Assembly: GCA_963810935.1 (NCBI GenBank)
Contig: CAWEPK010000007.1
Location: 160,001-224,000 of the forward strand
DNA from: an uncultured delta proteobacterium
GTDB taxonomy: Bacteria > Desulfobacterota > Syntrophorhabdia > Syntrophorhabdales > WCHB1-27
Direction of reading: 5' to 3'
Length of the DNA: 64,000 nt
The translations under genes and the position numbers were made by a program. Positions 17,732 through 40,142 of the stretch are shown piece by piece (position 1 is the stretch's first letter; every line of letters begins with the position of its first letter). The notes under the pieces were generated by a model. That model searched no databases. It was not told the origin of the DNA and saw nothing but the letters and a program-made list of their open reading frames with translations.

Positions 17732-17941
17732 CTAGTCTGCCGCGATTATAACGTTGCTTGCCTTGATCACCGCGTAAACTTCCTTCCCTTTCGAAATCTT
17801 TAGCGCCTCGGCGGACGTCTTCGTTATGATGGAGACGATCTCGGCGCCACCCGGGACCTCCACCACTACCTCTGAATTGACTGCACCGTGAGTAATGCTC
17901 TTGACCTTTCCCTTGAGAACGTTCCTTGCGCTTAGCTGCAT
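17732..17941 (-). CDS. mop: Molybdate/tungstate-binding molbindin (Mop, TOBE domain)
   Basis: SARN.LKGKV..G.VNSEV..SIITK.S..AVIKAS; 69 aa; AAGGAGG RBS. Confidence 0.93.
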   Translation of the reverse strand: MQLSARNVLKGKVKSITHGAVNSEVVVEVPGGAEIVSIITKTSAEALKISKGKEVYAVIKASNVIIAAD

Positions 17942-18248
17942 GGGATCCTCCTTCAAGAATATGTTCTTAATAAACCATAATGCAACTAGTAGCATATGCA
18001 AGGGAATGGGAGAATATTCATTTGTTCTGCAGATAGGTAGTGACTCCCGAGTTCAATGGCCGGAGGGTTAACCTCCTCACACACGACGGCGCTGTGCCCC
18101 TCTCCGGCAAGCGTTATTTGTGGGTAACGCACAGGAGCGTGTTCGGCTCCATGAACACACAACCGTTCCGTGTCCTCTAATATTGCGCACTTACCCGTCT
18201 ACCCCGCAGCGTCTCCTTAACTTCAGTATCCCATAGTGAAAAATAGAC

Positions 18249-18277
18249 TTGACAAGCGGCGAGGCGGTCTGTAAACT
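18249..18277 (+). promoter_or_regulatory. Sigma70 promoter
   Basis: TTGACA-N17-TAAACT. Confidence 0.65.
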
Positions 18278-18280
18278 TAG

Positions 18281-18304
18281 CGTTATTTCCTATCGGATAT
18301 AACG
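18281..18304. promoter_or_regulatory. ModE-type box 1
   Basis: CGTTAT-TTCCTATCGGAT-ATAACG over the predicted transcription start; lies between mop and modA. Confidence 0.7.
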
Positions 18305-18364
18305 CATCCCGCCGCGTGGTTGAAGAAGGCGGCAATGCCGAATGATGAAAAAGGAGCGAGCATC

Positions 18365-18745
18365 ATGGGCCGAATACTTGATTCATTAACGCGTCTCTTG
18401 TTGCAGGAAAAGCTTCTCCGGAGGTTGTGCGGGGAAGTGGGCGAGACCGAGGCATCTGTTTGCGAGGTCCACATGAAGCAGGGGCAGGAATATAGGATCA
18501 GATGGGTGAGCCTTAATGGCGCCGGCCCGGTGGAGTTGTCGCTGAGAGCGGCCGGCGGCCGGGCGGTCCCCATTGTCGCTGATAAGAACGGGTTCGCCTT
18601 TGTTGCCCTTGAAGGAGGTGTCTACGAGGTCTGGGCAGGCTTACGGGCAGGCGAAGGCGGGCGCAAGCGGATCCCCGTCCAGATAACGGTTTGCTCGGTG
18701 TTTGCCCCGCCCCATTACGTAGAAAAGAACGTCTCCATGTATTGA
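18365..18745 (+). CDS. Hypothetical protein
   Basis: AAGGAG RBS before ATG 18365; upstream promoter and operator. Confidence 0.55.
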   Translation: MGRILDSLTRLLLQEKLLRRLCGEVGETEASVCEVHMKQGQEYRIRWVSLNGAGPVELSLRAAGGRAVPIVADKNGFAFVALEGGVYEVWAGLRAGEGGRKRIPVQITVCSVFAPPHYVEKNVSMY

Positions 18746-18804
18746 GGCGAAAGGGCCGCAGGTCAGGCGCCCGCCAGTCGGCTTGCTAAAGCCCGGAGCC
18801 TTGA

Positions 18805-19546
18805 TTACCTGAGGATGAAGCCGTGTTTGATAAGGACCTTCCCGGCTTCTGCCGACTGTACGTACTTAAAGAACGCGGCCGCCTCGGGCTTGCCGACACC
18901 CCCGGCCGTCAATCCGACGGGATATGTCACGCGGGGGTACAGGTCTTGTGGCACCGTAAAAAGGATTTTCACGTTCCTGGCCATTTCGAGCGCATCCGTC
19001 TTGTAGACGAAGGCGCCGTCCACTTCGCCGCTGTCCGCATACGTGAGGCAGGCGCGTACGTCCTTTGCCATTATCATCTTGCCTTCAAGTTGCGAGTACA
19101 TGCCCGCTTTTTTGAGTGCTTCGACGGCGTATTGACCCGCGGGCACGCTATTGGGGCTGCCAATCGCTATCTTACTCAGTTTTGTAAGGTCTTTGAGCCC
19201 GCTCACCTTCAATGCCGGCTTGCCGACGAACACCAGGTCATTGTACGCGAAGAGCGTGGTATTCTTCTCACCTATAATCTTCTTTTCCTTCAGGTAGTCC
19301 ATCCATTCCGTGTTCGCGGAGAAGAAAAGGTCGGCGGGAGCGCCATTCTCGACTTGTTTGGCAAGGAAGCCCGACGCCCCGAAATTGTTCCGGAACGTTA
19401 TCCCTGCGTTCTTCGCCGAGAAGTTATTCTCCACGCTCGGTGAGGCTGGCAGCCACCGACGCGTAAATGTCCACGGCCGCCGCCGGGAAAGCAAAGAAGA
19501 TAACAAAAAATATCACGGTAAGGGACTTTAGAATGACTTTTCTCAT
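18805..19546 (-). CDS. modA: Molybdate ABC transporter periplasmic binding protein; frameshift or small deletion at ~19437
   Basis: Signal peptide plus AASLT in one frame; FGASG.LAKQVENGAPADLFFSAN, SVPAGQYA, VYKTDA in the next; AGGAGG RBS. Confidence 0.9.
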
Positions 19547-19593
19547 CGCTTCCTCCTGAATTCGGAAAAAAGGGCCGTTGCATGTACAAGGCC

Positions 19594-19617
19594 TGTTATA
19601 TTTGATCATGCCTAACG
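19594..19617. promoter_or_regulatory. ModE-type box 2 (upstream of modA)
   Basis: TGTTAT-ATTTGATCATGC-CTAACG, 47 nt upstream of the modA start. Confidence 0.65.
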
Positions 19618-19766: not shown

Positions 19767-21158
19767 TCACGGCTGGTACGCCCAGAAGTCGTTGTATACG
19801 TTGCCGCTGACGTCCTCTCCGCCGAACAGCCGGAAGTTGCCGGCCGAGTCGATCCAGGAGACGGGAGAATTCCTGCCCCCCGGCGTGGCCGCCGCCCCCG
19901 CGTAGCTGACTGACTGATTTATGGTATTGCTGCCCGACACCCAGGTCCATGTAGTGGTAGACGGGTCGAATGTCCAGAGGTCGCTGAGGTCGCCATAATT
20001 GCCGGCCGAATCGTAGCCGTATCCGCCGAAGAGCCAGAATTTGCCGGCAGAGTCGGTCCAGGAGGCGGACCAACCCCTGCACCCCGGCGTGCCCGTCGTC
20101 CCCGTCGTCGCGCCATAGGTGCCCGGCTTACCTTGAGTTTTGCCGCCGGAAACCCAGGTCCACGTGCTGGTAGACGGGTTGAATTCCCAGAGGTCGTTGA
20201 GGTCGCCATAACTACCCGTCGAATCGTGGCCGTATCCGCCGAAGAGCCAGAGGTTGCCGGCCGAGTCGATCCAGGAGATGGAGGCGTACCTGCACCCCGG
20301 CATGCCCGTCGTCCCTGTCGTCGCGCCATAGGTACCTGACTTACCTTCGGCATTGCCGCCGGAGACCCAGGTCCATGTAGTGGTAGACGGGTCGAATTCC
20401 CAGAGGTCGTTGAGATCGCCGCTGTTCGCCCCCGCATCCTCGCCGTATCCGCCGAAGAGCCAGAATTTGCCGGCAGAGTCGGTCCAGAAGGCGGGCCAGG
20501 CCCTGGCCCCCGGCATGCCCGTCGTTCCCGTGGTGGCACCGTAGGTGCCTCCCGTACCTATGTTCTTGCTGCCCGAAATCCAGGTCCATGTGGCAGCAGC
20601 GGGGTTGAATTTCCATAGGTCGTTGTATGTGGAGCCAGTGCCGTTATTTCCGCCGAAGAGCCATAAGTTGCCCGCCGAATCGGCCCAGGAGGCGGAGGCG
20701 AGCCTGGCCCCCGGCATACCCGTCGTGCCCGTAGTCGCGCCGTAGGTGCCTGAATGATTTACGGTATTGCTGCCCGACACCCAGGTCCATGTAGTAGTAG
20801 CCGGGTTGAATTCCCAGAGATCGTTGAGGACGCCGTTGTCGCCGACCGAATCGTAGCCGTATCCGCCGAAAAGCCAGAAGTTGCCTGCCGGATCGGTCCA
20901 GGAGGCGGACGTCATCCTGGTCCCCGGCGTGCCCGTCGTGCCCGTGGTCGCGCCGTAGGCGCCTGAATGATTTACAGTATCACTGCCCGACGTCCAGGTC
21001 CACTCATGAGGCAGGATTGTCTGGGAGGGAGAGGCAGCAGAAGGAGAGGCGGGGGAGGGAGAGGCCGTCGAGCCACCACCGCTGCCGCCGCACGAACAGA
21101 GCAACATGAACACGGAAAGAATTGCACACGACAGCGTAACACTTCTGGATGCCTTCAT
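19767..21158 (-). CDS. Kelch-repeat (six-bladed beta-propeller) lipoprotein
   Basis: Lipobox-like LLCSC-GGSGGG, S/P/A linker, six ~70-aa repeats TWTW..PGxR..W.D.AG..WLFGG..NDLW; AGGAGG RBS. Confidence 0.85.
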   Translation of the reverse strand: MKASRSVTLSCAILSVFMLLCSCGGSGGGSTASPSPASPSAASPSQTILPHEWTWTSGSDTVNHSGAYGATTGTTGTPGTRMTSASWTDPAGNFWLFGGYGYDSVGDNGVLNDLWEFNPATTTWTWVSGSNTVNHSGTYGATTGTTGMPGARLASASWADSAGNLWLFGGNNGTGSTYNDLWKFNPAAATWTWISGSKNIGTGGTYGATTGTTGMPGARAWPAFWTDSAGKFWLFGGYGEDAGANSGDLNDLWEFDPSTTTWTWVSGGNAEGKSGTYGATTGTTGMPGCRYASISWIDSAGNLWLFGGYGHDSTGSYGDLNDLWEFNPSTSTWTWVSGGKTQGKPGTYGATTGTTGTPGCRGWSASWTDSAGKFWLFGGYGYDSAGNYGDLSDLWTFDPSTTTWTWVSGSNTINQSVSYAGAAATPGGRNSPVSWIDSAGNFRLFGGEDVSGNVYNDFWAYQP

Positions 21159-21280: not shown

Positions 21281-21333
21281 CGTTATGCATGTCGAAGAAT
21301 ACCGTTACGCGTTATATCGCATAGGATAGAACG
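21281..21333. promoter_or_regulatory. Tandem ModE-type boxes 3 and 4 (upstream of the kelch lipoprotein)
   Basis: CGTTAT-N12-ATACCG (21281-21304) and CGTTAT-N12-AGAACG (21310-21333); minus-strand TTGACA at 21337-21342. Confidence 0.6.
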
Positions 21334-21398
21334 GCTTGTCAAGCTTTTTCTAATCCTTCTGTGAAAACTGTATTGACCGAAGAAAAAGCTTGACATGA

Positions 21399-21422
21399 CG
21401 TTGCTACTCATGAGATATAACG
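21399..21422. promoter_or_regulatory. ModE-type box 5 (upstream of tpsA1)
   Basis: CGTTGC-TACTCATGAGAT-ATAACG just downstream of TTGACA at 21390-21395. Confidence 0.6.
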
Positions 21423-21914
21423 CTTAAGCTTTATGTCGCCCTGAGGAATAACGCCTGCGGAATGGCACTGGAAGACCAAGTCTGTCAGCCGTTATCGTAA
21501 TGCATCAACTCTGCGGGGCCGGAAATTGTGTATGCAGTCCGGCCGGTGATCCCGGACGTTCGGGCCACCCCCTTATCGAGGGAGTTGCGCCGGGGGTCAT
21601 GCGGAATGTTCGGTTATTTTTCGACCGCCCTGAGCCGGCGGCGGAAATCGTGTGGGCAACGGAAAGTAATAGATAAGAGGCAAGGTGGGACTGTTTTGAA
21701 GTCGGCGGCGTTCATCTCCGGCACAGCACAAAGGAAATTACCCGCACCGGCAAGCCTCATCCCGGCGTTTAAAGCGTCCCGTGGACAACCGTTTAAAATT
21801 TACACCCGGCCGAGTCCCGCAAGGATTTGCACTTTTAAACACCCTCGGCATCCGGGGAATTCGGATCGTGACGATTCTTGTTTTCTCAACCTGTAAGGAG
21901 CAAAGGAGGATGTG

Positions 21915-24900
21915 ATGAAGTGGATCAACCGGAAGGTGTTTAAAGAGAAGAAGAAGGATATCTCACTCGCCCTTGGCCCTGCTTTGGCTCTACGGTCTCC
22001 TTGCAACCCCTGCCCTTGCCGCCCCAACAGGCGGCGTAGTCACAAGCGGCGCCGCCGCCATAGTCCAGTCGGGCAATACAACGAACATCAACCAGTCCAC
22101 GAACAAGGCCTCCATCAACTGGCAGACCTTCAGCATAGCCCCGGCAGAGACGGTCAACTTCAACCAGCCTAGCATCTACGCCATCACCTTGAACAGGGTA
22201 GTCGGCAATGAGAGCAGTATCATCCAGGGGGCCCTTAACGCCACAGGCAGGGTATACCTTATCAACTCCAACGGCATCCTCTTCACCAAGGGGTCTAGTG
22301 TAAATACCTCAGGCTTCTTAGCCAGTACCCTGAACATAACGGATGCGGACTTCAACGCAGGCAATTACGTATTCAACGCCAACGGCTCTTTAGGCTCCGT
22401 AGTAAACCAGGGGACTATAACAGCCAACAACGGAGGGTATGTAGCCCTTCTAGGCAATACGGTATCCAACCAGGGGGTAATAGCAGCTACCAAGGGGACG
22501 GTAGCCTTAGCCTCAGGCGACCAGATAACCTTAAACTTCAACGGCAACTCCCTCCTTAACGTAACGATAGACCAGGGAACCTTAAATGCCCTGGTAGAGA
22601 ACAAGCAGGCCATCTATGCAGACGGGGGTACGGTAATCCTTACCGCCAAAGCAGCAGACGACCTCCTATCCGCCCAGGTGAATAACTCAGGGCTGATCCA
22701 GGCGCGCACTATAGACGACCTGAAAGGCAATATAAAGCTCTATGCGGATGGGGGTACGGTCAACGTGTCGGGCACGCTCGATGCCTCGGCTCCTAATGGG
22801 GGAGACGGGGGGTTGATAGAGACGAGCGGGAACAAAGTGAGCATAGCGGATAGCGCCATTGTAACCACCAAATCGGCCTACGGTACTAACGGCACATGGC
22901 TCCTGGACCCGGATGGGTTTACGATAGGGCTTACATCGGCAGACGGCGACATGACCGCCACCGCCCTCAACACGGCCCTCACCTCCGGCAATGTCACCAT
23001 CGCGTCTACCAGCGGGTCAGGGACCGACGGCAACATCAATGTCAATGGTGCAGTGACCTGGTCTGCCAATACCTTAACCCTGAACGCCACGAACAATGTT
23101 TATGTCAACGCGGTAATGACCGCCACGGGGACGGCGAGCTTCGCCGCCAACTACGGCTATCTGCTCAGCAACGGTGTCCCTACGACTACACCGAGCGGGA
23201 CGGGAAATGCCGATGGGACGCCGTATGGGCTTTACTGTTACCAGGGCGCTGCACTCGGCTCGTTCGTCGGCAGCGTCAATTTCAGCGGGATCGGGACCGT
23301 GATGTTGAACGGCCAGAACTACACCCTCATCAACGCCGCGACAACCACCGCGACAAATGGCGTGATGGCCTATGGACTGGATTACATCGCAAACAACCTG
23401 GCGGGGAACTACGTGCTGGGCAGCAACATCACGGGTTCCTGGACCGGCCCTATCTCGGCATCCGATTTTACAGGCAATTTCAACGGCTTCGGCCATACGA
23501 TCTCTTCACCCATCCTGACGGCAACTGGAGTGTTCGGCACTATCGGCTCCGGCGGAACGGTCAGCAACATCGGCGTCGTCTCCGCCACTGTCACCGCCGC
23601 CGCAAGTGGCGCAAGCACGGTGCCAGCCGTCGGGACACTCGCGAACTATAACCAGGGCGACATCATCAACAGCTTCGCCAGCGGCACACTGAATAACTCG
23701 AACATCACTAGCGCCGGCGGTTTGGTGGGCGCCAACTCCGGCCTGATCGCGCAAAGCTACTATGCGGGCCAGGTCTTCGCCGTGAATATCGCGGGCGGCC
23801 TGGTCGGCACGAACGCAAGCGGCGGGACGGTCCTCGACAGCTCGGCGCCGGGTTCGGGAGCCGCCTATTACGTCTGGAATACCTCCGGGGCCACAGGCAT
23901 CACCTATGTGGGCGGCCTGGTCGGCGTAAACCAATATGGCGGAACGATCAGCCGGTCCTATGCAGGAAACCTGATAAAGATGAGCGACACGACTTCCACG
24001 GCCGGTGCTTTTGTCGGGGAGAACAGCGGCTCCATCGACCAGTGTTACGCATACAAGTACAGCACGCTCGGTTTCCCCATAGGCCCCAATCTCGCAGGGT
24101 TCGTCTGGAACAACACCTCAACCGGCACGATCACCAACTCATATACCACGGCCCTTTACAGCAGCTCAACAAGCGCGAACTGGACAGCCGGCTTCGCCTA
24201 CGAGAACGAGGGCACGATCACGAACGCCTACGCCACCTCGTATTCCGCCGGCACCTTAAACAGCGCGCGATACGGATTCGTATACAGCAACACGGGCACG
24301 ATCACGGACGCCTACTGGTACGCATACACGAGTTCCGGCTCGACGCCAGTTACCGACACATCAGGCGCGACGAACCTGACCGCCACCCAGGCAGCTACCT
24401 TCTCAAGCTACACAGGGTTTGGCACCAGCGACTGGGCGGCCTCTAAATCCGGCTACCCCATCCTTGACAACCTCTTCGTATATGTGAGCAACAGCAGCAC
24501 CCCCACCTATGGCAGTGCCACGTCGACCATATCCACGCTGGGTCTAACGGCGCGGGGTCTACAGGGAGGAGGCGGCGCCGGCGGCGGCGGCGGCACAACC
24601 AGTCTGCTGGACAGCATCACCTCGACCACGTACAATCCGTTCACCGTAACGACGGACAACGGTTATGTAGATGCCGGTGTCTGGAAGGCTACGGCTATCC
24701 TGTCATCATCAACGCCATACGAGAACATCAAGGGCGTTGTCATGGTAAACCGCAAGGCCCTGACCCTTGCCTCCGGCACGGTTCAGAACAAGACCTACGA
24801 CGGCACCACGTCGGCGGCGTTCAACGGCACGCCGACCCTCAGCGGCTTCGTGAACGGCCAGACCCTCAACGTTACCTATACGTCCGCCGCCTTTGCCAGC

Positions 24901-27900: not shown

Positions 27901-28648
27901 CGGCACCATCACCAATTCATATTCCACGGGCAACGTGTACGCCGGTCGGTGGGCCGGAGGGTTCGCCGGAGATATCGCTTATATGACCATTATCAACTCG
28001 TACGCCACGGGCAATGTCACGGCAAACGGCGCTGCGGGAGGCGGGTTCGGAAGATTGGATGCCAATAACACCGTCACGGACTTCTATACGACGGGCACCG
28101 TCACCAGCAGCACCGGTATTGCGGGTCCACTTGTCGGAGAATTACAGTACGGGGGTAACAACATCACCAATACGTTCTGGAACGGGAGCAGCCAGGGGAA
28201 TCCGGCCGGCCAGACGGATACCGCCGGCTCTCTCCCGGGCCACGCCAACTATAACAACTCCCAGGGCCTCACCACGACACAGATGAACGACGTGCAGTAC
28301 TACATGAACGGCACCATCAATCAAGTGCTTGCAGTGCGCGCGGCGGAGGCGGCCTACGCAGCCCAGCAGGAAGCCAATTTCGAGGCCGACGGACAGCAGA
28401 CCGGCGGCCAGGCATCATTCAGCGGCCAGGAGAGCAACGCTACCGGCCAGGGGCTCAATAACCAGATCAGCAGCTTTACGCCTTCCAACACCGGGACGGT
28501 TAACGGGACGATGGATAACCATATCGTCTACTCCGATTCGGGCAGCTACTCAGCCACCATAAAGTCGATCAATGCAGACGGCATGCAGTTCGACCTGGAG
28601 GGCGGCGCGCCGGACGGTGCAAATGTCCCAGGCGGGACAAATAAATGA
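21915..28648 (+). CDS. TpsA/filamentous haemagglutinin-family exoprotein 1 (~2240 aa; two TPS domains, GLUG-like and YDG repeats); frameshifts at ~21970 and ~26632
   Basis: AAGGAGG RBS, signal peptide, INWQTFSI..LNRV..LINSNGILF TPS domain, KTYDG, many ATGNV/VGGL.G repeats; ORFs 21973-26655 and 26639-28648 join by comparison with the paralogue. Confidence 0.88.
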
Positions 28649-28682
28649 CCGGACTTCGACTAACTATGGAAAGGATAAAAAT

Positions 28683-29679
28683 ATGAACGTAATAAGATCG
28701 CTTATACTTGCTCTTATCATGGTTTCTCTCGGGTTTTCCCCGGTCTTCGCGCAGAAAACCGCGACGAAGCCCGCTGCAACAAACCCTAAGCCCGCCGCCG
28801 AGAAAAAGCCGGGGGTAGTGGCTGTAGTAAACGGCTCCGATATCAACCTTGACACTTTTACAGTGGAGCTGTACCGGGCGGAGCGCCAAATCCTTAACGC
28901 AGGCAGGCCGCTCTCCGCGCTGCAGGTGACGCGTCTGAAGTCAGAGGTGCTGGAAGCCCTGGTCAGGCAGGAGCTTCTTTACCAGGAAGCCAGGAAGACG
29001 GTCCGGGTTACAGACACCGAGATCGCGGGGGAGCTGGAGAAGCTGAAGGACCAGTTCCAGAACACGTCCGACTTCACAAGGCTCACTCCCGTGCTGCGGG
29101 TGCAGGTAGAACGAGGCCTCGCGATCCGCAAATACATAGACAGCGCTTACGTCTCCAAGGCGACCGTGACGGACGCGGAGATCAAGGTCCTATTACGACG
29201 GCCACAGGGACGGCTTCCGCCAGCCCGAGCAGGTGAAAGCAGCCTACATATTCGTCAAGGTCGATCCTCAGAATGAGGCCAAAAAAGCGGAGTCGAAAAA
29301 GAAGATAGAAGACATCAAAAAGAAACTTTCCGCAGGAGAAGACTTTGCCGCCCTCGCGCGCGCCAATTCCGACGACATCACCGGCGCACGCGGCGGGGAC
29401 CTGGGTTACGTGCGGCAGGGGCAATTGAACAAGCCCGTCGAGGAAGCCCTTTTTTCGCTGAAGCCTGGAGAAGTGAGCGACATAGTCGAAACGAAGGTGG
29501 GCTATAACCTCGTAAAGGCCGTAGAGCGCAAGCCCGAGACCACAATGCCTTTCGAGAACGTGAAGGACCAGTTGCGCACAGCCCTCCGGCAGGAAAAGGG
29601 GCAGCAGGAAGCTAACGCCTATATCGTAAAGGTGCGGGAGAAAGCCGCTGTCGAAACATTCCTGCCTGCGGAGGAATAG
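28683..29679 (+). CDS. Periplasmic parvulin-type PPIase (SurA/PrsA-like); apparent extra base at ~29187
   Basis: VAVVNG..L.RQELLYQEA N-domain; FAALARANSDD..GGDLGY..GEVS rotamase domain; joined read IKSYYDGHRDGFRQPEQV. Confidence 0.88.
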
Positions 29680-29735
29680 GTGGAGGGCTGGAGCCGTTTG
29701 TGTCACGGAGCCTAACAAATAACATGGGGGGCTTT

Positions 29736-32700: not shown

Positions 32701-35700
32701 AGACCCTCAACATCAGCTACACGGGGGCGGCCTTTTCCGATAAGAACGCCGGCACGGACAAAACCGTTATCCTCGAGTATACCACCTCCGGCACCGCCAG
32801 GGCGAGCAACTACACGCTTCCCAGCAATGCGACCACGACCACGGCAAGCATCACTCCGTTGACGATCAGCGCCACCGCCATGGGCAACGACAAGGTCTAT
32901 GACGCCACGACGACCGCCACGGCCTCCTGCGCTCTGAACGGCGTGCTTGCCGGGGATAACGTTTCCGTAACGTACGGCAGCGCCGCCTTCGCCGACCCGA
33001 ACGCCGGAACAAACAAGGCGGTAACCGTCAACGGCCTCAGCCTAGGTGGAACGGCGGCCGGCAACTACACGCTGCAAAGCACCACTGTCCTGACTATGGC
33101 CGATATCACGCCCCGGCCTTTGAACATCACAGGCTACAAGACGGCGGACGGCGCCACCAGCGTCCCTGCGAGCAGCCTGACCCTGCTTAACGTGGCGGCG
33201 AGTGACTCAGTCACCTTAAGCGGCACGGCCACCCTGGCTTCAGGCGCAAGCGGCGTCCAGCCGATCACCAACCTGGCCTCGCTTACGGTGAGCAACCCCA
33301 ATTACACGGTGGTAGGCGCCGTCGGCTCGGTGGCGGTGGGGACGAATAACCTGGTCCTGGACCATGTGGCAAGCGGCACGACCATTATCAACACGGTAGG
33401 CAACACGACGACGATCAACACGTCCGACAGGGCAGTGATCGACTGGGTACGCTTCAACGTAGGGGTCGGCGAGACGCTGACATTCGTCCAGCCGGCAGTC
33501 ACCTCTATCGTCCTCAACCGGGTGACGGGCAATGAGCCGAGCGTGATCGCCGACATCCTCAGCGCCAACGGCAGGGTCTTTATCATCAATTCCAACGGCA
33601 TACTCTTCGCGCCCGGCTCCAGCGTCAACGTGGGGGCTCTCCTTGCAAGCACCCTCAATATAACGGACACCAACTTCCAGAACAGCAACTACGTCTTCAC
33701 CGTCGCAAGCGGCAACAACTCGGTGATCTCCGAGGGCGACATCGTCATAGTGGATGGCGGCTTCGTCGCCCTGGCGAGCAACAACGGCGTGGCAAGCTCC
33801 GGCACCATCACGGCCCTGGGCGGCAAGGCCCTCCTTGCATCGGCCGACAACCTCACCCTCACCCTGGACAGCTCCGACAGAGGCTTGGGCAGTTATAACA
33901 TAAGCAGTCTCGACGGGACGACTGCGGTGAACGGCGTCGTGGACGTCGCCGCTACCAGCGGCAACGGCGGGCTTCTGGGTAGGGCCGGCGGGAACATCAT
34001 CATGTCGAATAATTTCATGCTCGGCACGGGCAACAACGGAACCTGGTCGTGGACCATACCTCCATCACCATCGGCACTGGCGGGACCATGACCGGGACGT
34101 TCGTCGGCAACAACCTGGCGCTGCGCAACCTCTCCCTCAACTCGCTGACCGGCGACATCACATTCAATGACCCCGTGACCTGGTCGACCGATAACACGCT
34201 GTCTCTTAACGCAGCGAACAATATCAACATCAATAACGCGATCACCGCCACAGGGACGAACGCAGCATTGGTCATGAATTACGTGGGCAACTACAACATC
34301 CTCACCCCGGCCTCCTTTAGCGGCGCGGTCCTCAACTCTGCCGGCATACCGGTGGCCCAGCAGGATACGAGCGGTGGGGTGTACGGCAGCATTAATCTTT
34401 ACGGCTCCAATGCCGGCCTCAAGATCAACGGCGTCACATATACGCTGATCCAGAGTATGAGTCAACTGGACGCATTGGACAATATAAATGCCGTCACCAA
34501 CATGTACTATGACACCGCCACCCACGCATACGACATCCCCGCCACCTACATGGTCATCACCACATATTCGTGGGGCTGGAATATGAACGTCAAATACTAC
34601 AACCCGGCCGACGGCCAATACGACCTGACTTCAATAACCCCCATCACCGGCAACTACGCCCTGGCGCGGAACCTCGACGCCTCGGGCACTACCTACATAA
34701 CTTCGCTCATAAGCAGCTTCTCGGGGACGTTCGCGGGCCTGGGCCATACCATCAGTAACCTGACCATAAATGCGCCGATTCAGAACCCGAGCACCACGCC
34801 TACCACGACAATAACCGACGTCTATGGGCCATTTTCGGCCGATGCAGCGCTGATAGGCACGACCACGGGATCGACAAACGTCGTCCGCGACCTCGGGCTG
34901 ATAAATACCAACGTTACCGCCGACAGCGGCGCGACGTTGGTGGGCTCATTCTCCGGCGGGACCGTCAGCGGCGTATACGCCACGGGAAACGTGAACGTGC
35001 TTGGCAACGGCGCCGGTCTGATCGCCTCGGTCACCGGCACTACGGTTACAAACGCTTATGCCAATGTCGCCGTTACCGCCTCGCAAACAGGCCAGGTCGG
35101 CGGCTTGATTTCCTACGCCAGCAACAGCACCATCACGAGCTCTCACGCCTCAGGGGCCGTGACGCTCATCGGCGGCGCCTATACCGGGGTTGAGGATCCG
35201 GATGGGAATGCGGGCGGTGCTATCATCGATTACGCAGGCGGATTGGTAGCAGGGATGAGTGGTACAGTAAGCAATTGCTATGCGACGGGCGTCGTGAGCG
35301 ATACCCATGGCCGGTATGTAGGCGGATTGCTCGGGAATTTCGCGGGTTCGGCGACCAACTCCTTTGCGACCGGCCCCGTCACGGCATTAGGTTACGTCGG
35401 CGGCCTGATAGGGCAAAGCACAGGCTCCAGCGGGTCTCCGGCGATTGTCACGAACGACTACGCCACCGGCGCTGTGACGGCAGTCGGCAGCGGCTTTGCT
35501 TCCAGCGGGTATGTCGGCTACGAGGGCGGGCTTATCGGCTACGCCACGTATACCAACGTGGGCAGTCTCCTTTGCCACGGGTGACGTAGTTGCCTCCATC
35601 GCGCGTACCGCCGGTGAGCCAATAGGTACTTTTAATAGTATTACCGACAATCTTTTTGAATATGTCGGCGGCCTGGTCGGATATCTCGAGAGCGGATCCA

Positions 35701-36652
35701 TCACAAAATCCCACGCCACGGGCAACGTCAAAGGCGCCGCCGCCTGGGTCGTCGGTGGCCTCGTCGGCGCAGGCACTAACATCAGCAATTGCTACGCGAC
35801 CGGTAATGTCTCCGGCTACCAGGGCGTCGGCGGCCTGGCAGGCTGGGCCGACAACGTCGCCAATTCCTACTCGACCGGCAACGTATCCGGCTACCAGATG
35901 GTGGGCGGCTTGGCTGCCACCGGCACCGGCAATATCAGTAATTCCTACTCGACCGGCAACGTCTCCGGCACGATCACGGTGGGCGGATTCGCGGGGGTTT
36001 TGTCATCCGCAAACGTCACGGACTCGTACTCTACGGGCAACGTGACGGGAGTGGACCAGGTAGGGGGCTTCTCAGGACAACTGGGCCAGAACACGAATAT
36101 TGCCGATTCCTGGTCGGGCGGCACGGTAAACGGCTCCACCAATGTGGGCGGGTTTATCGGCCTCGTACGATACAATAATAACACCCTGAACAACGATTAC
36201 TGGAACTCTAGCAGCCAACCCAACGCCGTCGGCACTTATCAGTCGAACTCGGCCTATACCCCGGCTGCCGCCACCATTACCAACAGCCAGGGCATAAGCA
36301 GCGCAGAATTTAAGAACGGAGATATTGCCAATTATCTCAACGGCACCATCGGCCAGGTGCTATCGCCGCTCGGGCATTCGAGGCGCAGCAGGAAGCCATA
36401 TTCGAAGGCAACGGACAGCAAACCGGCGGGCAGGCTTCCTTTAGCGGGCAGGGGAGCAATTCTACCGGCCAGGGGCTCAATAACCAGATCGGCTCCTTCA
36501 CGCCTTCCAACACCGGGACGGTGAACGGGACGATGGATAACCATATCGTCTACTCCGATTCGGGCAGTTACTCGGCCACCATAAAGTCGATCAATGCAGA
36601 CGGCATGCAGTTCGACCTGGAAGGCGGCAGCCAGGGCGGGCCTAACAGATAG
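29736..36652 (+). CDS. TpsA/filamentous haemagglutinin-family exoprotein 2 (~2300 aa); frameshifts at ~34059, ~35566 and ~36363
   Basis: Same architecture as exoprotein 1; ORFs 29700-34091, 34049-35584 and 35496-36524 plus a tail ending TAG 36650-36652 that matches the exoprotein 1 C-terminus. Confidence 0.88.
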
Positions 36653-36762: not shown

Positions 36763-38505
36763 ATGTGTAAGATATGCAAGCTCATCTCCGCAGCAACCGT
36801 GTGGGTGCTCTTCCTCTCCGCACTCATCATCGTAAGCTCCACCGCTTCCGCCCAGATCGCGCCTCCGCCGACCATAGGCGGCGCGGTAAACCAGGCGATC
36901 ACCCCGCAGGCCGAGGCAAGGCCCGCCGCGAAAGAGCCGGCGAAGCCGGTCATTGTCCAGGAAGAGGAGAAGCCCTTCGCCCTGCCGGAAGGCCAAAAAC
37001 TCATGGTGAAGGACTTCAAGATAGAAGGGGCCCTGAAGAAAGATGAGGCCAAGCTGTCGGCCTTGCTTGCGCCTTACAAGGACAAGGAACTGACCATGGC
37101 CGAGATCACTGAGGCCGCCAATAAGATCACGGTCTTCTATCGTGACAAGGGATACCTCGTCGCAAAGGCTTACGTCCCGAAGCAGGACGCAACCGAAGGC
37201 ACGCTGGTGATAAAGGTAATCATCGGCAAATACGGTAAGTTCTCCATAAAAGACAAATCATACATCAGACAATCCTTTCTCCAGGGGGTTTTCGACAGGA
37301 CAAAAAAAACATCGCCCGACGTCACGCGGGATAGCCTCGAACGCTCCATGCTACTCGTCCGGGACATGCCGGGCGCAAAGCTGCCTACAGTCGCCATCGC
37401 TCCGGGCACAGCGCCGGGGACATCCGACTTCGACGTGACCGTGGACCCGACGCAGCGCCTCAACGGCTACACGATGGTGGACAACCAGGGATCACGCTAT
37501 ACGGGTCAGAACAGGGCTTACGCGGGCCTCGACACAAACTCCCCCTTCGGTATCGGAGACAAGCTCTCCTTAAGCGCCATGGCGACCAACAAGTCAGTAG
37601 CGAATGAAAACAATGGGATGTATAACGGCCGGGCGGCCTACTCCTTGCCTCTGGGTTACAGCGGCCTGCGCGCCGAGTTTTCGGCAGCCCACACTAATTA
37701 TGGCTTAGGCGGCATATACGCCCCGCTGAATGCTGTTGGGTATGCCAACATCTACGACAGCACCCTCTTCTACCCCCTGATCAGGACCCGCGAGCAGAGC
37801 GTGGACGTCTCCCTGAACCTCGCTTACAAGCAGTTACGGGACAACCAGTCGGCGGTAGGGTCAACGAACCCGAGGGGCGATGAAGTCGCCACCTTAGGCA
37901 TACAGAAGGGTGCATACGGCAGCCTTCTGGGTAAAGACCTCTTTACCATGATGTCGGGAAGCGTAAGCTACGGGACGCTCACCATACAGGATCCCAGCCA
38001 GAGGCTCCTGAACCAGGCAGGTGCCAATACCGGGGGAACTTTCGCAAAAGCGAACGTCAGCCTCCTCGGGAACCTGACCCTTAACGACAAGTTCTCCTTG
38101 AAGGGCTCGATCAGGGGGCAGAAGGTCCTGACCGGGAACAACCTCGACGTGATCGAGCAGATGTTCATAAACGGCTCGTCAGGGGTAAAGTCCTTCACCG
38201 AGATGATCGGCGGGGACAACGGCTACGTGGCCAACATGGAATTAAGGTACGCCCTTCCGTCGCTTTCTCCGATGAAGCACTACATCGGCGTCTTTGCCGA
38301 TAACGGCTGGGTCTATGCCCAGCAGGGCAGTTGGACGACAGCCCGCACCCAGACCATGCTATCGGATGTGGGTATGGGCTACTACCTGAACCTTAAACAG
38401 CTCTTCGGCAGCTTGCAGATAGCGCAGGCAGTAGGGCAGACGAACAACAAGATCGAGAGTGAACCGGGGATTCGCATCCTGATGCAGCTCGGAGCGTCGT
38501 TCTAG
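36763..38505 (+). CDS. TpsB (ShlB/FhaC/HecB family) outer-membrane transporter
   Basis: Signal peptide, POTRA ITVFYRDKGYLVAKAYVPKQ, DNQGSRYTG, GDNGY..ELRY, C-terminal Phe. Confidence 0.92.
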   Translation: MCKICKLISAATVWVLFLSALIIVSSTASAQIAPPPTIGGAVNQAITPQAEARPAAKEPAKPVIVQEEEKPFALPEGQKLMVKDFKIEGALKKDEAKLSALLAPYKDKELTMAEITEAANKITVFYRDKGYLVAKAYVPKQDATEGTLVIKVIIGKYGKFSIKDKSYIRQSFLQGVFDRTKKTSPDVTRDSLERSMLLVRDMPGAKLPTVAIAPGTAPGTSDFDVTVDPTQRLNGYTMVDNQGSRYTGQNRAYAGLDTNSPFGIGDKLSLSAMATNKSVANENNGMYNGRAAYSLPLGYSGLRAEFSAAHTNYGLGGIYAPLNAVGYANIYDSTLFYPLIRTREQSVDVSLNLAYKQLRDNQSAVGSTNPRGDEVATLGIQKGAYGSLLGKDLFTMMSGSVSYGTLTIQDPSQRLLNQAGANTGGTFAKANVSLLGNLTLNDKFSLKGSIRGQKVLTGNNLDVIEQMFINGSSGVKSFTEMIGGDNGYVANMELRYALPSLSPMKHYIGVFADNGWVYAQQGSWTTARTQTMLSDVGMGYYLNLKQLFGSLQIAQAVGQTNNKIESEPGIRILMQLGASF

Positions 38506-38553
38506 ATTGCGTGGGCCGAATGCGCACAGCGCAAGCCAGGAGAGGAATGGGAT

Positions 38554-38994
38554 ATGAGTGTAAAATGGCTGTCGGGATTAGTCGACTACGGAATCATCGG
38601 TCTTTTGGCCGCCCTCAGCGTCATCGTGGTGGCGGTCGCCCTTGAACGTTACGCCCTTTACCGTAAGTGCAGGATCGCGGCCTTTGCGGATATAAAGTCC
38701 CTGGAGCTGGTGCTGACGGCGAAATTGTCCGTCATCGCCTCGGTGGGCAGCAATGCCCCTTACCTGGGGCTTTTGGGCACCGTGCTCGGGATCATGCTCA
38801 CCTTTTACAACATGGGGCAGGATGCGGCCATGGACACGGGCAGGATCATGACCGGCCTGGCCCTTGCCCTGAAATCGACGGCCGTCGGGCTTGTGGTAGC
38901 GCTTATCGCGGTCGTGATCTACAACGCGCTTTTGCGGAAGGTCAGGGTGTTGATGCTGAAATGGGAGATTGCCAATGGACGAAAAACCCTTTGA
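38554..38994 (+). CDS. exbB: ExbB (short type)
   Basis: [29 protein letters not shown]. Confidence 0.92.
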
Positions 38995-39355
38995 GACGAT
39001 GAACGTCATCCCATTTGTGGACATCATGCTGGTGCTTCTCACCATCGTGCTGACCACGTCGAGCTTCATTGCCGCCGGGAGGATACCGGTCAACTTGCCG
39101 CAGGCCTCAAAAAGCGTTACCGATGCGGACAAGGCCGCGATCATCGAGCTGTCCGCTGCGGGAGATATGTATCTCAACAACAGGGCGGTCACTCTGGAAT
39201 CCTTGAAAACCTTGCTTGTGCCGATCGGCAGGGAGACGGGCTTCGTCATCAGGGCGGACAAGGAGATCTCCTTGCAGCGCTTTATCGACGTGGCCGACGT
39301 ACTGAAACAGTTGGGTTTTAAAAAGGTGGCCGTCCAGACGAAGAGCCGCACTTAA
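38975..39355 (+). CDS. exbD: ExbD
   Basis: [30 protein letters not shown]. Confidence 0.92.
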
Positions 39356-39380
39356 CGAAGAGACAGCTTGGTAGGGGTTT

Positions 39381-40142
39381 ATGGTTCGTCTGCGAGGCAA
39401 GTTTAGTTTTTATCAATGGTTGGCTGCTTCCCTGCTTATGCACGCCGTCATAGTATTACCTTTTATTTTCGGCACCCTCCGTATGCCCGATAACAACAGG
39501 CGATCCAAGCTCGTGGTCGAGCTTTACGGCATGATCTCGAACAGGCAAGCCGAGGAAAAACATAAAGCGGCGACCGTCGTCCGTCAGCCTAAAAGAGTAG
39601 AGCGGCAAGCCCCGCCACGGCCTAAGCCGGATAAACAGCAGCCCAAGGAGCCCGAAAGGCCCGTGAAGCCGGATACCCCTGTACCGGCCCAAAGGCCTGA
39701 TGACAGGCAATACGCCGCCGGGCAGAATGCTTCGGCGAGCGTCATTTACAAAATGGCGGGCAGCGATGACGAGCAGAAGGGACAATCCATAAGACACGCC
39801 GAGCGGGAAGGGGACAAGTTAGCGGCCAGGATCCAGGAGTACGTGGGAAAGATGGCCAAGCGCATGTATTCCGTGCTCGTGTATCCGCCGGAAGTCCGAA
39901 GAAACGGCATCGAGGGCGTTTCGACGATCGCCTTCATCATCACGGAATCCGGGGCCATAAAGGAGGGCTCATTGAGGGTGCGGAGGAGCAGCGGCTACGC
40001 CGCCCTCGATTCGAGCGCCCTGAAATCGGCCCTCGCGAGCACCCCGTTCGAGAAACCGCCTAAAGAGATGCCGATTGTTATCGCCATATCCTTTAATGTC
40101 GAAGCAGCGCGGTCGGCGGCGAGAAACGCTGCGGTGCGATAA
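39381..40142 (+). CDS. tonB: TonB family energy transducer
   Basis: TM with SLLMH (SxxxH), Pro/Lys linker, YP..GIEG..F.I..G..SSG..LD..A C-domain. Confidence 0.88.
   Translation: MVRLRGKFSFYQWLAASLLMHAVIVLPFIFGTLRMPDNNRRSKLVVELYGMISNRQAEEKHKAATVVRQPKRVERQAPPRPKPDKQQPKEPERPVKPDTPVPAQRPDDRQYAAGQNASASVIYKMAGSDDEQKGQSIRHAEREGDKLAARIQEYVGKMAKRMYSVLVYPPEVRRNGIEGVSTIAFIITESGAIKEGSLRVRRSSGYAALDSSALKSALASTPFEKPPKEMPIVIAISFNVEAARSAARNAAVR

What the first reader, a model, noticed from the sequence alone, without database searches (positions are those of the whole stretch)
17732..40142. Candidate new system: molybdate/tungstate-regulated two-partner secretion island coupled to ExbBD-TonB
Seen: mop, a hypothetical gene, modA and a kelch lipoprotein are followed by a divergent tpsA1-PPIase-tpsA2-tpsB-exbB-exbD-tonB run. 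The same 24-bp dyad lies upstream of the hypothetical gene, modA, the kelch gene and tpsA1. Established: ModE binds CG(T/C)TATATA-N6-TATATAACG-type dyads and represses Mo uptake genes; Haemophilus HxuABC shows that a TPS exoprotein can serve TonB-dependent nutrient capture. Inference: a Mo/W-starvation-induced surface apparatus in which giant beta-helical proteins capture or mobilise Mo/W (for example from minerals, thiometallates or chelates), feeding ModA and Mop. I know of no described Mo-regulated TPS system but cannot search the literature here.
Basis: partly seen in the sequence, partly recalled or inferred. Interest (0 to 1): 0.9.

Follow-up and report, generated by a model that had tools for sequence, protein, structure and literature searches.

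The report
Molybdenum-controlled giant-protein secretion and TonB locus
A gene cluster for secreting giant surface proteins, with its own TonB energy module, carries the DNA switch that bacteria normally use to sense molybdenum, and the same link recurs in several other bacterial groups, pointing to an undescribed surface route for getting this trace metal.

Summary
Five CGTTAT-N12-ATAACG dyads, not four, lie in the window, all at 18281-21422, upstream of a hypothetical gene, modA, the kelch lipoprotein and tpsA1. They have the geometry of the E. coli-type ModE box. Genome-wide the box marks a molybdenum regulon: three modA copies, modD, a short modE-like gene, and all three TPS loci.

The link recurs elsewhere. 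The box lies upstream of close tpsA homologues in 8 of 16 named genome loci, against 0 of 23 distant ones. A ModA-like binding protein sits inside tpsA-tpsB-exbB-exbD-tonB clusters in eight loci. One operon ends in a modE-like gene. In two Pseudomonadaceae genomes the same exbBD-tonB type follows modG beside modEABC.

By gene content the cluster resembles the phosphate-starvation PdtAB-ExbB2D2-TonB4 cluster of P. aeruginosa; sequence orthology was not tested.

Regulation by molybdenum status is well supported by sequence. Mo/W capture by the exoproteins remains inference. The split genes are assembly errors. The searches run found no paper linking ModE to TPS. Earlier scan notes proposed receptor-based, not TPS-based, TonB Mo/W uptake on other DNA.

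The parts
17732..17944 (-). mop: single TOBE/Mop molybdate-binding domain protein (about 70 aa)
   Evidence: PF03459 TOBE E 6e-19; TIGR00638 Mop 87.7 bits, cut-off 55
18249..18277 (+). sigma-70-like promoter TTGACA-17-TAAACT of the hypothetical gene
   Evidence: Only promoter-like site found by the scan, 10 of 12 matches. The paralogue on C11 has the same layout.
18281..18304 (.). ModE-type box 1, perfect dyad CGTTAT-N12-ATAACG, starting 4 nt after the -10 hexamer
   Evidence: 0 mismatches; PWM score 32.3
18365..18745 (+). Hypothetical 126-aa protein (Hyp141 family), no known domain
   Evidence: No Pfam, NCBIfam or PDB hit. Both paralogues (C11:84745-85107, C12:14017-14397) also lie behind a box.
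18805..19546 (-). modA, E. coli-type molybdate-binding protein; the apparent frameshift near 19434 is an assembly error
   Evidence: TIGR01256 176 bits, cut-off 62.5; PDB 1AMF ModA E 9e-34; one base left out at 19434 in contigs of 2 runs; 274-aa frame with it
19594..19617 (.). ModE-type box 2, 48 bp upstream of the modA ATG
   Evidence: 2 mismatches; PWM 24.1
19767..21158 (-). Kelch-repeat beta-propeller protein, probable lipoprotein
   Evidence: Kelch families E 1e-27 to 1e-30; N-terminus MKASRSVTLSCAILSVFMLLCSCGGSGGG
21281..21304 (.). ModE-type box 3 (weaker), in tandem with box 4, 29 bp start to start
   Evidence: 1 mismatch; PWM 17.6
21310..21333 (.). ModE-type box 4, 3 nt downstream of a minus-strand TTGACA (21342-21337) that faces the kelch gene
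   Evidence: 1 mismatch; PWM 28.2; context
21390..21422 (+). tpsA1 promoter region: TTGACA (21390-21395), 3 nt, then ModE-type box 5 (21399-21422) covering the spacer and the -10 position
   Evidence: 2 mismatches; PWM 20.0. The same TTGAC-N2/3-box layout is seen at 11 promoter contexts.
21423..21914 (+). About 490-nt leader before tpsA1; no conserved ORF and no Rfam match
   Evidence: ORFs here are not conserved with those upstream of the G033 tpsA genes; Rfam E<=1: none
21915..28648 (+). tpsA1, giant TPS exoprotein (TPS domain, YDG, GLUG repeats, conserved C-terminal motif); split in the assembly near 21975 and at 26632
   Evidence: PF05860 E 2e-57, PF18657, PF07581; TIGR01901; 2224-aa frame with the indel seen in reads; N-terminus; C-terminal motif
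28572..29679 (+). Periplasmic SurA_N plus PpiC-type PPIase (two frames in the assembly)
   Evidence: SurA_N_2/3 E 3e-11; Rotamase E 2e-24
29700..36524 (+). tpsA2, second giant TPS exoprotein (90% identical to tpsA1 over the first 400 aa); split in the assembly
   Evidence: PF05860 E 2e-52, YDG, GLUG; 90% identity; indels at 34058 and 36364 in reads
36763..38505 (+). tpsB, Omp85-type TPS transporter; the only copy found in the genome
   Evidence: ShlB E 4e-22, POTRA_2 E 6e-17; tblastn finds only this copy
38554..38994 (+). exbB, short 'ExbB2' type
   Evidence: TIGR02805 exbB2 145.3 bits, cut-off 135.35
38969..39355 (+). exbD
   Evidence: PF02472 E 4e-24; TIGR02804 ExbD_2 109 bits, below the 123 cut-off
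39381..40142 (+). tonB: invariant Ser17 and His21 near the N-terminus, Pro-rich spacer, TonB_C domain
   Evidence: PF03544 E 2e-11; invariant S17, H21, Y168, P169 in 8 homologues. The reading of Ser/His as the transmembrane SxxxH motif is recalled.

Best explanation
The window holds part of the molybdenum (ModE-type) regulon of an uncultured Syntrophales-type anaerobe (nearest named records are Syntrophaceae and 'uncultured delta proteobacterium' MAGs). That regulon includes a PdtAB-like two-partner secretion operon: tpsA1, PPIase, tpsA2, tpsB, exbB, exbD, tonB.

Shown by sequence: E. coli-type ModE boxes overlie the core promoters of tpsA1, the kelch gene, the hypothetical gene and modA. The same box heads the other mod genes and every other tpsA gene of the genome.

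Inferred mechanism:
1. When Mo/W is sufficient, a short HTH-only ModE-like protein sits on the boxes and blocks RNA polymerase. It probably works with a separately encoded Mop protein.
2. When Mo/W runs short, the operon is derepressed.
3. TpsB exports the giant beta-helical TpsA proteins, including two orphan TpsAs encoded elsewhere, helped by the periplasmic PPIase.
4. The dedicated ExbB-ExbD-TonB set powers an outer-membrane step that helps bring molybdate or tungstate, or a bound form of them, to ModA-type binding proteins.

The last step is the least certain. The TonB target is unknown, because no TonB-dependent receptor is in the locus.
For: (1) The box is real.
- 5 of 5 window matches lie at 18281-21422.
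- The genome has 6 perfect copies, against about 0.1 expected from base composition (my hand calculation, no call).
- There are 15 sites with PWM>=20, against 0, 1 and 0 in three Markov simulations. The PWM was trained on 13 of these sites, so that count is partly circular.

(2) It is a ModE box.
- Its geometry matches the published consensus ATCGCTATATA-N6-TATATAACGAT (PMC2700814 methods passage; PMC545781 passage) and the EMSA-proven RTTATGT-N8-RCATAAY (PMC12327845 passages).
- It lies upstream of all 3 modA copies (C7, C15, and a weak one on C8), modD (TIGR01334, 254 bits), a modE-like gene (C11:85219) and an Oxidored_molyb fusion gene.

(3) Link to TPS within the genome: the 4 tpsA genes lie at 3 loci, and all 3 loci have a box 150-500 bp upstream.

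(4) Repressor layout: TTGAC(N) lies 2-3 nt before the box at 11 promoter contexts, tpsA1 among them. At 2 further promoters the box lies 3-4 nt after the -10 hexamer.

(5) Relatives: 7 of 7 loci with TpsA at 68% identity or more, in 4 related genomes, have a box of PWM 18 or more within 1.3 kb. None of 21 loci at 52% or less has one within 1.5 kb.

(6) Named genomes.
- 8 of 16 loci at 59% identity or more have a box within 1 kb upstream, against 0 of 23 others.
- That is 11 hits in 38.5 kb upstream, against 2 in 594 kb elsewhere.
- The lineages are Syntrophaceae, Desulfuromonadales, Geobacter, Uliginosibacterium, Trinickia and Herminiimonas.

(7) ModA-like binding proteins sit inside or beside tpsA-tpsB-exbB-exbD-tonB in 8 loci. 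Their only NCBIfam hit is modA, and their only PDB hits are ModA structures 7T4Z, 1ATG and 9WGD.

(8) In G033 the operon runs box, tpsA, tpsB, exbB, exbD, tonB, modE-like HTH.

(9) In two Pseudomonadaceae genomes, exbB (67-68% identical to the window's), exbD and tonB follow modG. They lie next to modE-modABC, with tpsB-tpsA-SBP alongside.

(10) A genome paper noted a TonB gene in the Azotobacter chroococcum mod cluster 'potentially for molybdate' (PMC4465626, passage).
Against: - There are no expression data. No RNA run was listed for this DNA.
- No ModE-like protein of this genome carries a Mo-binding domain (ORFs of 111, 115 and 137 aa). A ModE with reduced Mop content bound DNA regardless of Mo in vitro (PMC12327845). 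Mo-responsiveness is therefore assumed, not shown.
- 8 of 16 close homologous loci have no box even at PWM>=8. ModE control is not a fixed property of the module.
- The P. aeruginosa cluster with the same gene content answers to phosphate, not Mo (PMC4971064).
- No TonB-dependent receptor lies in the locus. The genome's two receptors have their own ExbB nearby.
- The TpsAs carry adhesin-type repeats (YDG, GLUG) and no recognisable metal-binding domain.
- Two boxes lie beside TetR-family genes.
- TpsA identity of 60-80% across phyla suggests horizontal transfer, which could carry a promoter along with the gene.
Confidence: 0.5

Rival explanations
1. The operon is truly ModE-controlled, but the TpsA proteins are adhesins or matrix proteins, used for attachment to minerals, organic matter or partner cells. 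Mo status is only the cue. The ExbBD-TonB set serves secretion, anchoring or release of the giant proteins, not metal import.
For: YDG and GLUG repeats and a beta-helical build are adhesin-like. No receptor or metal-binding domain is in the locus. PdtA has no assigned function beyond a contribution to virulence in a nematode model (PMC5422565 passages). A kelch surface lipoprotein and an ArnT-like glycosyltransferase are also under the box, which would fit envelope remodelling.
Against: It does not explain why ModA-like periplasmic binding proteins are built into the operon in 8 loci. It also does not explain why the same exbBD-tonB type is joined to modG beside modEABC in Pseudomonadaceae.
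Confidence: 0.25
2. The module is a general oxyanion-starvation device, serving phosphate in Pseudomonas and molybdate, tungstate or vanadate elsewhere. It acts on a shared source such as oxyanions sorbed on iron or aluminium oxides or organic matter. Each lineage has wired it to its own starvation regulator.
For: The P. aeruginosa cluster with the same gene content is under PhoB and sigma-VreI (PMC2729926, PMC4971064 passages). Half of the close loci lack ModE boxes but still carry a ModA-like SBP. One box-less Azoarcus locus lies beside a type II secretion cluster, as pdtA does beside hxc (PMC2729926).
Against: Sequence orthology with PA0690-PA0699 was not tested. The linked SBPs resemble ModA, not PstS. 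No pho boxes were looked for.
Confidence: 0.15
3. The dyad is the operator of a regulator unrelated to Mo, for instance a TetR-family protein, or the site before tpsA1 is a by-product of the divergent kelch promoter. The TPS operon would then not be Mo-regulated.
For: Boxes lie between a TetR(CecR-like) gene and an ArnT-like gene, and just after another TetR gene. The ModE-like proteins lack a sensor domain.
Against: The regulon is dominated by mod genes: 3 modA, modD, a modE-like gene and an Oxidored_molyb fusion. tpsA1 has its own -35 hexamer 3 nt before its own box. The two orphan tpsA loci have boxes without a kelch gene. Boxes recur before tpsA in Betaproteobacteria that have full-length ModE.
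Confidence: 0.07

Closest known systems
PdtA/PdtB two-partner secretion cluster of Pseudomonas aeruginosa (PA0690-PA0699: pdtA, phdA, pdtB, exbB2, exbD2, tonB4, PA0696-0698, PpiC-type PPIase)
   Same: Same gene content: large TpsA, TpsB, a short ExbB of the 'exbB2' model, ExbD, a TonB homologue and a PpiC-type PPIase, with no TonB-dependent receptor. Induced by starvation for an oxyanion nutrient. The function of the exoprotein is unknown (PMC2729926, PMC4971064, PMC5422565; passages read).
   Different: There it is controlled by PhoB plus the ECF sigma factor VreI (PUMA3) under phosphate limitation. Here it is controlled by ModE-type boxes, and no FecI/FecR-like genes are in the window. Here there are two tandem tpsA genes and two orphan ones. 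Sequence orthology was not tested, because no P. aeruginosa sequence was at hand. ExbB at E<=1e-25 was found in 0 of 201 genomes of one Pseudomonas-type genus and 2 of 401 Pseudomonadaceae genomes.
HxuABC haem-haemopexin system of Haemophilus influenzae
   Same: A TPS exoprotein serving TonB-dependent nutrient acquisition, induced by limitation of that nutrient (PMC5422565, PMC4873976 listing and abstract).
   Different: HxuC is a TonB-dependent receptor encoded in the operon. Here no receptor is in the locus, but ExbB, ExbD and TonB themselves are. The regulators are Fur and iron there, ModE-type boxes here.
ModE-molybdate repression of modABC(D) in E. coli and predicted ModE regulons of Geobacter and Methanosarcina
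   Same: A 24-bp dyad with the geometry CG(T/C)TATAT-N8-ATATA(A/G)CG that overlaps promoters of molybdate-transport genes, with several boxes in divergent intergenic regions (PMC2700814, PMC545781, PMC12327845; passages).
   Different: The regulator here is HTH-only, with Mop encoded separately. Such split forms were noted in Desulfovibrio with an unknown sensing mechanism and a different box (PMC545781). In the passages I read, no TPS or TonB genes are listed in a ModE regulon.
Azotobacter mod locus (modG, modE, modA1B1C1) with an adjacent 'TonB receptor potentially for molybdate'
   Same: Two Pseudomonadaceae genomes found here have modG-exbB-exbD-tonB next to modE-modABC. A genome paper remarks on a TonB gene in the A. 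chroococcum Mo cluster (PMC4465626 passage).
   Different: The paper does not mention a TPS system. Here tpsB-tpsA-SBP lies alongside. I did not establish which species G274 and G309 are.

Membership tests
Two-partner (type Vb) secretion system | TpsA with an N-terminal TPS secretion domain | tested here: met
   PF05860 E 1.7e-57 (tpsA1) and 2.4e-52 (tpsA2); TIGR01901 128.8 bits
Two-partner (type Vb) secretion system | Cognate TpsB with POTRA domains and a ShlB/FhaC-type barrel, encoded nearby | tested here: met
   PF03865 E 4e-22 and PF08479 E 6e-17 at 36763-38505
ModE regulon | E. coli-type ModE box upstream of molybdate-transport genes and of the gene in question | tested here: met
   Boxes before modA (C7, C15 and a weak one on C8), modD and tpsA1; consensus from PMC2700814 and PMC545781
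ModE regulon | A ModE regulator with an HTH domain and two Mop (molybdate-binding) domains | tested here: not met
   Three TIGR00637 matches of 56.8-66.2 bits (cut-off 98.5) in ORFs of 111-137 aa, none with TOBE. Mop is encoded separately.
ModE regulon | Molybdate-dependent DNA binding and transcription | not testable with these tools
   Needs EMSA and expression data; no RNA run was listed
PdtAB-ExbB2D2-TonB4 cluster (P. aeruginosa) | Gene content tpsA, tpsB, exbB2-type, exbD, tonB and a PpiC PPIase in one locus | tested here: met
   compared with PMC2729926 table and text passages
PdtAB-ExbB2D2-TonB4 cluster (P. aeruginosa) | Sequence orthology to PA0690-PA0695 | not tested
   No P. aeruginosa sequence was obtained. 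L074 (Pseudomonas sp.) is not this cluster.
PdtAB-ExbB2D2-TonB4 cluster (P. aeruginosa) | Control by the PUMA3 (vreAIR) ECF system and PhoB | tested here: not met
   No sigma-70 r2/r4 ECF or FecR-like gene was found among the window ORFs scanned. Pho boxes were not searched for.
HxuABC-type TPS plus TonB-dependent receptor | A TonB-dependent receptor gene in the operon | tested here: not met
   PF00593 and PF07715 match only C7:91762-93551 and C7:138486-140015, outside the window
Contact-dependent inhibition (CdiBAI) | C-terminal toxin domain and an immunity gene after tpsA | tested here: not met
   Only TPS, YDG and GLUG were found by Pfam. The C-terminus is a motif conserved across lineages, not a variable toxin.

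The most novel reading that the evidence does not exclude
A widespread class of TPS systems with their own ExbB-ExbD-TonB motor (the PdtAB type) is an energised outer-membrane route for scarce oxyanion nutrients. In many lineages it is a ModE-controlled molybdate/tungstate scavenging machine. Giant surface beta-helices capture or release bound Mo/W, TonB acts on the TpsA-TpsB complex itself rather than on a classical receptor (perhaps through the conserved C-terminal beta-hairpin motif of TpsA), and a dedicated ModA-like protein takes the anion in the periplasm.
Probability: 0.2. Interest if true: 0.92.

Novelty: new variant of a known kind. Interest (0 to 1): 0.8.

Why it matters
- How molybdate and tungstate cross the outer membrane when scarce is poorly understood. 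In textbook accounts (recalled, not checked here) uptake starts at periplasmic ModA.
- A TPS/TonB module wired to ModE, to ModA-like proteins and to modG/modEABC in several phyla would be the first protein-based, energised surface system for these metals.
- It would also give a physiological theme, oxyanion starvation, to the long-unexplained PdtAB-ExbB2D2-TonB4 cluster of P. aeruginosa.
- The idea can be tested directly in cultured, harmless soil bacteria that carry the box (Herminiimonas, Uliginosibacterium, Trinickia).
- It bears on Mo limitation of nitrogen fixation and anaerobic metabolism in peat and soil.

Tried and rejected
- TonB C-terminal domain against the TpsB N-terminus and POTRA domains, complex prediction: no verdict, so it says nothing either way.
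- TpsB N-termini of ExbBD-linked and unlinked loci were aligned. I saw no extension or TonB-box-like segment special to the linked ones.
- RNA evidence: no RNA holder was listed for window 17700-23700. Only four DNA soil-metagenome runs of one study hold it.
- Small ORFs in the tpsA1 leader are not conserved with those upstream of the G033 tpsA genes, so they were rejected as genes.
- Moco riboswitch or any other Rfam family in 17900-22000: none at E<=1.
- Bare dyad pattern in three betaproteobacterial genomes: not enriched over its reversed control (3, 9 and 6 hits against 17, 5 and 18). Only AT-rich, PWM-scored sites near modE, modA and tpsA are informative there.
- Link to Pdt by sequence: the Pseudomonas sp. 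locus L074 is a different TPS system. 0 of 201 genomes of its genus have this ExbB type.
- Hyp141: no PDB hit at E<=1 and only unnamed clusters in the ESM Atlas.
- The AlphaFold model of the TpsA1 C-terminal 260 aa (mean pLDDT 69) shows a beta-helix, one long helix, a disordered linker and a low-confidence terminal hairpin. No fold search was run.
- Supplement of PMC2700814: the search did not locate the ModE-site table (7 of 19 files not searched), so that list was not seen.
- Studholme and Pau 2003 (PMC317290) is not held. Its predicted ModE targets could bear on the novelty claim.
- Literature searches for ModE or molybdate/molybdenum with TPS, haemagglutinin or TonB found nothing relevant.

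Full report
**What is in the window**

The window is G000:C7:160001-224000, from a 4.06-Mb, 21-contig metagenome-assembled genome with 58% G+C. Its nearest named records are Syntrophaceae and "uncultured delta proteobacterium" MAGs.

| Gene | Coordinates | Strand |
|---|---|---|
| mop (TOBE) | 17732-17944 | - |
| hypothetical gene | 18365-18745 | + |
| modA | 18805-19546 | - |
| kelch-repeat probable lipoprotein | 19767-21158 | - |
| tpsA1 (TPS, YDG, GLUG) | 21915-28648 | + |
| SurA_N/PpiC PPIase | 28572-29679 | + |
| tpsA2 | 29700-36524 | + |
| tpsB | 36763-38505 | + |
| exbB (model 'exbB2', over its cut-off) | 38554-38994 | + |
| exbD | 38969-39355 | + |
| tonB | 39381-40142 | + |

The kelch N-terminus is shown. 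In an alignment of 8 homologues, tonB keeps Ser17 and His21 near its N-terminus and a YP motif in its C-domain.

**The split genes are assembly errors**

modA, tpsA1, the PPIase and tpsA2 are each broken into several frames.

- Short-read contigs of four soil-metagenome runs (one study) differ from the window by 1-2 base indels at 19434, 26632, 34058 and 36364.
- With those indels modA reads 274 aa, tpsA1 2224 aa and tpsA2 at least 1961 aa.
- The breaks are therefore assembly errors. No listed indel was tied to the PPIase break, which I take to be of the same kind.
- tpsA1 probably starts at ATG 21915, since that frame encodes an N-terminus like that of tpsA2.

**The dyad in the window**

CGTTAT-N12-ATAACG with up to 2 mismatches occurs five times in the window: 18281, 19594, 21281, 21310 and 21399.

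- Shuffles give a mean of 1.34, and 2 of 100 shuffles reach five.
- All five sites lie in the four intergenic regions of the mod/kelch/tpsA1 stretch.

**The dyad in the whole genome**

- There are 6 perfect and 9 one-mismatch copies. My hand estimate from base composition is about 0.1 perfect copies.
- A weight matrix built from 13 sites finds 15 sites at score 20 or more, against 0, 1 and 0 in three order-3 Markov simulations of the genome. This count is partly circular, because the matrix was trained on those sites.

**What the other sites control**

- modD followed by a second modA (C15).
- A short modE-like gene, with a paralogue of the window's hypothetical gene transcribed divergently from it (C11:85219).
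- A fusion of an Oxidored_molyb domain with a tetrapyrrole methylase, with three boxes.
- The modABC operon on C8, with a weak site.
- A third paralogue of the hypothetical gene (C12).
- A TetR/ArnT-like divergent pair.
- Both remaining tpsA genes of the genome, on C12 and C17.

A family search finds TPS domains only at these three loci, and all three have the box. There is one tpsB, and only one ExbB, ExbD and TonB of this type; the other ExbB, ExbD and TonB_C matches in the genome are distant. The orphan TpsAs presumably use the window's transporter.

**Identity of the box**

Its geometry and half-sites match the published E. coli-type ModE consensus:

- ATCGCTATATA-N6-TATATAACGAT (PMC2700814, methods passage).
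- ATCGNTATATA-N6-TATATANCGAT (PMC545781, passage).
- The EMSA-verified RTTATGT-N8-RCATAAY of Methanosarcina (PMC12327845, passages).

**The regulator**

- The genome has three ModE-like genes, but all are HTH-only: 111-137 aa frames scoring 56.8-66.2 bits against a cut-off of 98.5.
- Mop domains are encoded separately. One lies in the window, and one lies divergent to a modE-like gene on C9.
- Such split forms were noted before, with an unknown sensing mechanism (PMC545781).

**Promoter layout**

- In 11 promoter contexts a TTGAC(N) hexamer lies 2-3 nt upstream of the box, so the box covers the spacer and the -10 position. These include tpsA1, the kelch gene, the C12 and C17 tpsA genes, modD-modA and modABC.
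- In the hypothetical gene and its C11 paralogue the box starts 3-4 nt after a TTGACA-17-TAAACT promoter.
- This is a repressor layout. I infer repression when the regulator is bound, that is at Mo/W sufficiency.

**Conservation in related genomes**

Sixty relatives were searched with the first 400 aa of TpsA1, and each locus was scanned with about 1.5 kb of flank.

- 7 of 7 loci with 68% identity or more have a box of PWM 18 or more, 150-1300 bp upstream. They come from G002, G019, G021 and G033, the last from another family of the order.
- None of 21 loci with 52% identity or less has one.

**Conservation in named genomes**

Across GTDB species representatives, 39 loci were found.

- 8 of 16 loci at 59% identity or more carry a box of PWM 16 or more within 1 kb upstream, against 0 of 23 others.
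- That is 11 hits in 38.5 kb upstream, against 2 in 594 kb elsewhere.
- The carriers are a Syntrophaceae MAG, a Desulfuromonadales MAG, a Geobacter MAG, Uliginosibacterium gangwonense, Trinickia dinghuensis, Herminiimonas glaciei, and two loci of one delta-proteobacterial MAG close to G000.
- In Uliginosibacterium, Trinickia and Herminiimonas, ModE genes exist and box-like sites lie near modE/modA genes. The bare pattern is not enriched genome-wide there.
- The other 8 close loci have no box even at PWM 8. These include Telmatospirillum, two Azoarcus and an Acidoferrales MAG.

**Three further links to molybdenum that do not depend on the box**

1. Eight loci combine tpsA, tpsB, exbB (39-74% identical to the window's), exbD and tonB with a periplasmic binding protein.
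   - The loci are Telmatospirillum, Uliginosibacterium, two Azoarcus, Trinickia, Herminiimonas, a MAG labelled Bacteroidota and a Campylobacteraceae MAG.
   - For the four of these proteins that were scanned, the only NCBIfam hit is modA, at 66, 37, 34 and 40 bits against a cut-off of 62.5.
   - For the two searched against PDB, the only hits are the ModA structures 7T4Z, 1ATG and 9WGD.
   - The Uliginosibacterium protein aligns through the AANF, GATG and APYG segments of 7T4Z. That these segments form the anion site is recalled, not tested.
   - The window's own modA is of the E. coli ModA type (1AMF, E 9e-34). It is an orphan with no modBC beside it, sitting 2.4 kb from tpsA1.
2. In G033 the operon reads box, tpsA, tpsB, exbB, exbD, tonB, modE-like HTH (109 aa) on one strand.
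3. In 2 of 401 Pseudomonadaceae genomes sampled, an ExbB 67-68% identical to the window's lies in the order modG (two TOBE domains), exbB, exbD, tonB. This run is divergent from full-length modE-modA-modB-modC, with tpsB-tpsA-(ModA-like SBP) alongside.
   - The modG-modE intergenic regions there contain CG(C/T)TATAT-N8-ACATA(A/G)A sites.
   - A genome paper remarked on a TonB gene in the Mo cluster of Azotobacter chroococcum, "potentially for molybdate" (PMC4465626, passage). It mentions no TPS.

**Comparison with what is known**

- The gene set matches the P. aeruginosa cluster pdtA, phdA, pdtB, exbB2, exbD2, tonB4 ... PA0699 (PpiC PPIase).
- That cluster is induced by phosphate starvation through PhoB and sigma-VreI, and the function of PdtA is unknown (PMC2729926, PMC4971064, PMC5422565; passages).
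- The association of tpsB with exbBD in other proteobacteria was already noted there.
- I could not test sequence orthology.
- Unlike HxuABC, no TonB-dependent receptor is in the locus. The genome's two receptors lie elsewhere on C7 with their own ExbB.
- No toxin or immunity pair is present. Instead the TpsAs of this family share a conserved C-terminal motif...IVFxDxxSYSAxIKxIxVDGVxFxLED, in 12 of 16 sequences aligned. The four exceptions include frames truncated by assembly breaks.
- In a moderate-confidence model this motif is a terminal hairpin after a disordered linker.

**Literature**

Searches for ModE or molybdate/molybdenum together with two-partner secretion, haemagglutinin or TonB returned nothing relevant. 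Studholme and Pau 2003 and the Geobacter ModE-site table could not be read.

**Verdict**

- That the TPS-ExbBD-TonB operon belongs to a ModE-type molybdenum regulon is well supported by sequence. I put it at about 0.8.
- That it serves Mo/W acquisition is a reasonable but untested inference. I put it at about 0.4-0.5, counting the oxyanion-general variant.
- The island type is known. Its wiring to molybdenum homeostasis, across several phyla, appears undescribed.
- Earlier notes of this scan proposed TonB-dependent Mo/W uptake built on classical receptors in other genomes. None of them involved a TPS system.

Noticed in passing
window 18365-18745; G000 C11:84745-85107; C12:14017-14397: A small protein family with no known domain (126-168 aa) has three paralogues in the genome, and all three lie directly behind a ModE-type box. 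Two have the identical TTGACA-17-TAAACT-box layout. It is a candidate new Mo-regulon member of unknown function.
   Followed up: partly
L005:8893-10644 (G000 C11:82892-84643): A 583-aa fusion of an Oxidored_molyb (sulfite-oxidase-type Moco) domain with a tetrapyrrole methylase domain is preceded by three ModE-type boxes, followed by a 154-aa unknown and the modE-like gene.
   Followed up: no
L004:6153-9832 (G000 C1, boxes at C1:95170 and 95199): Two boxes 29 bp apart lie between a TetR(CecR-like) gene and an ArnT-like glycosyltransferase plus methyltransferase operon. This suggests envelope remodelling under the same regulator.
   Followed up: no
window 19434, 26632, 34058, 36364 (also 21268-21648 and 28530-28666): The assembly differs from short-read contigs by 1-2 base indels at the places where genes are split. 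Other split genes of this MAG (such as the TPP enzyme at 12028-13263, which lacks its C-domain) may be artefacts too.
   Followed up: partly
C-termini of TpsA: window 28500-28645; L047, L048, L049, L052, L054, L110, L051, L057, L120, L122: A family-specific C-terminal motif (...YSAxIKxIxVDGVxFxLED) follows a predicted disordered linker. It is a possible docking strand for TpsB, TonB or the binding protein.
   Followed up: partly
L120 and L122 (G274:C24 and G309:C92): In two Pseudomonadaceae genomes a PD-(D/E)XK transposase-like gene sits between the TPS-linked SBP and tonB. This recalls the 'transposase-like' PA0691 (phdA) between pdtA and pdtB in P. aeruginosa.
   Followed up: no
G000 C1:85446-86756 and C11:112471-114081: The kelch lipoprotein and the 573-aa unknown protein divergent from the C17 tpsA each have a paralogue (52% and 54% identity). 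Neither has a box of PWM 12 or more nearby, so only one copy of each seems Mo-controlled.
   Followed up: partly
L014:4581-9729 (G000 C12): Downstream of the orphan C12 tpsA lie two sigma-70-family genes, a PAS hybrid histidine kinase, KaiC and two KaiB genes: a Kai-type module in a non-phototrophic anaerobe.
   Followed up: no
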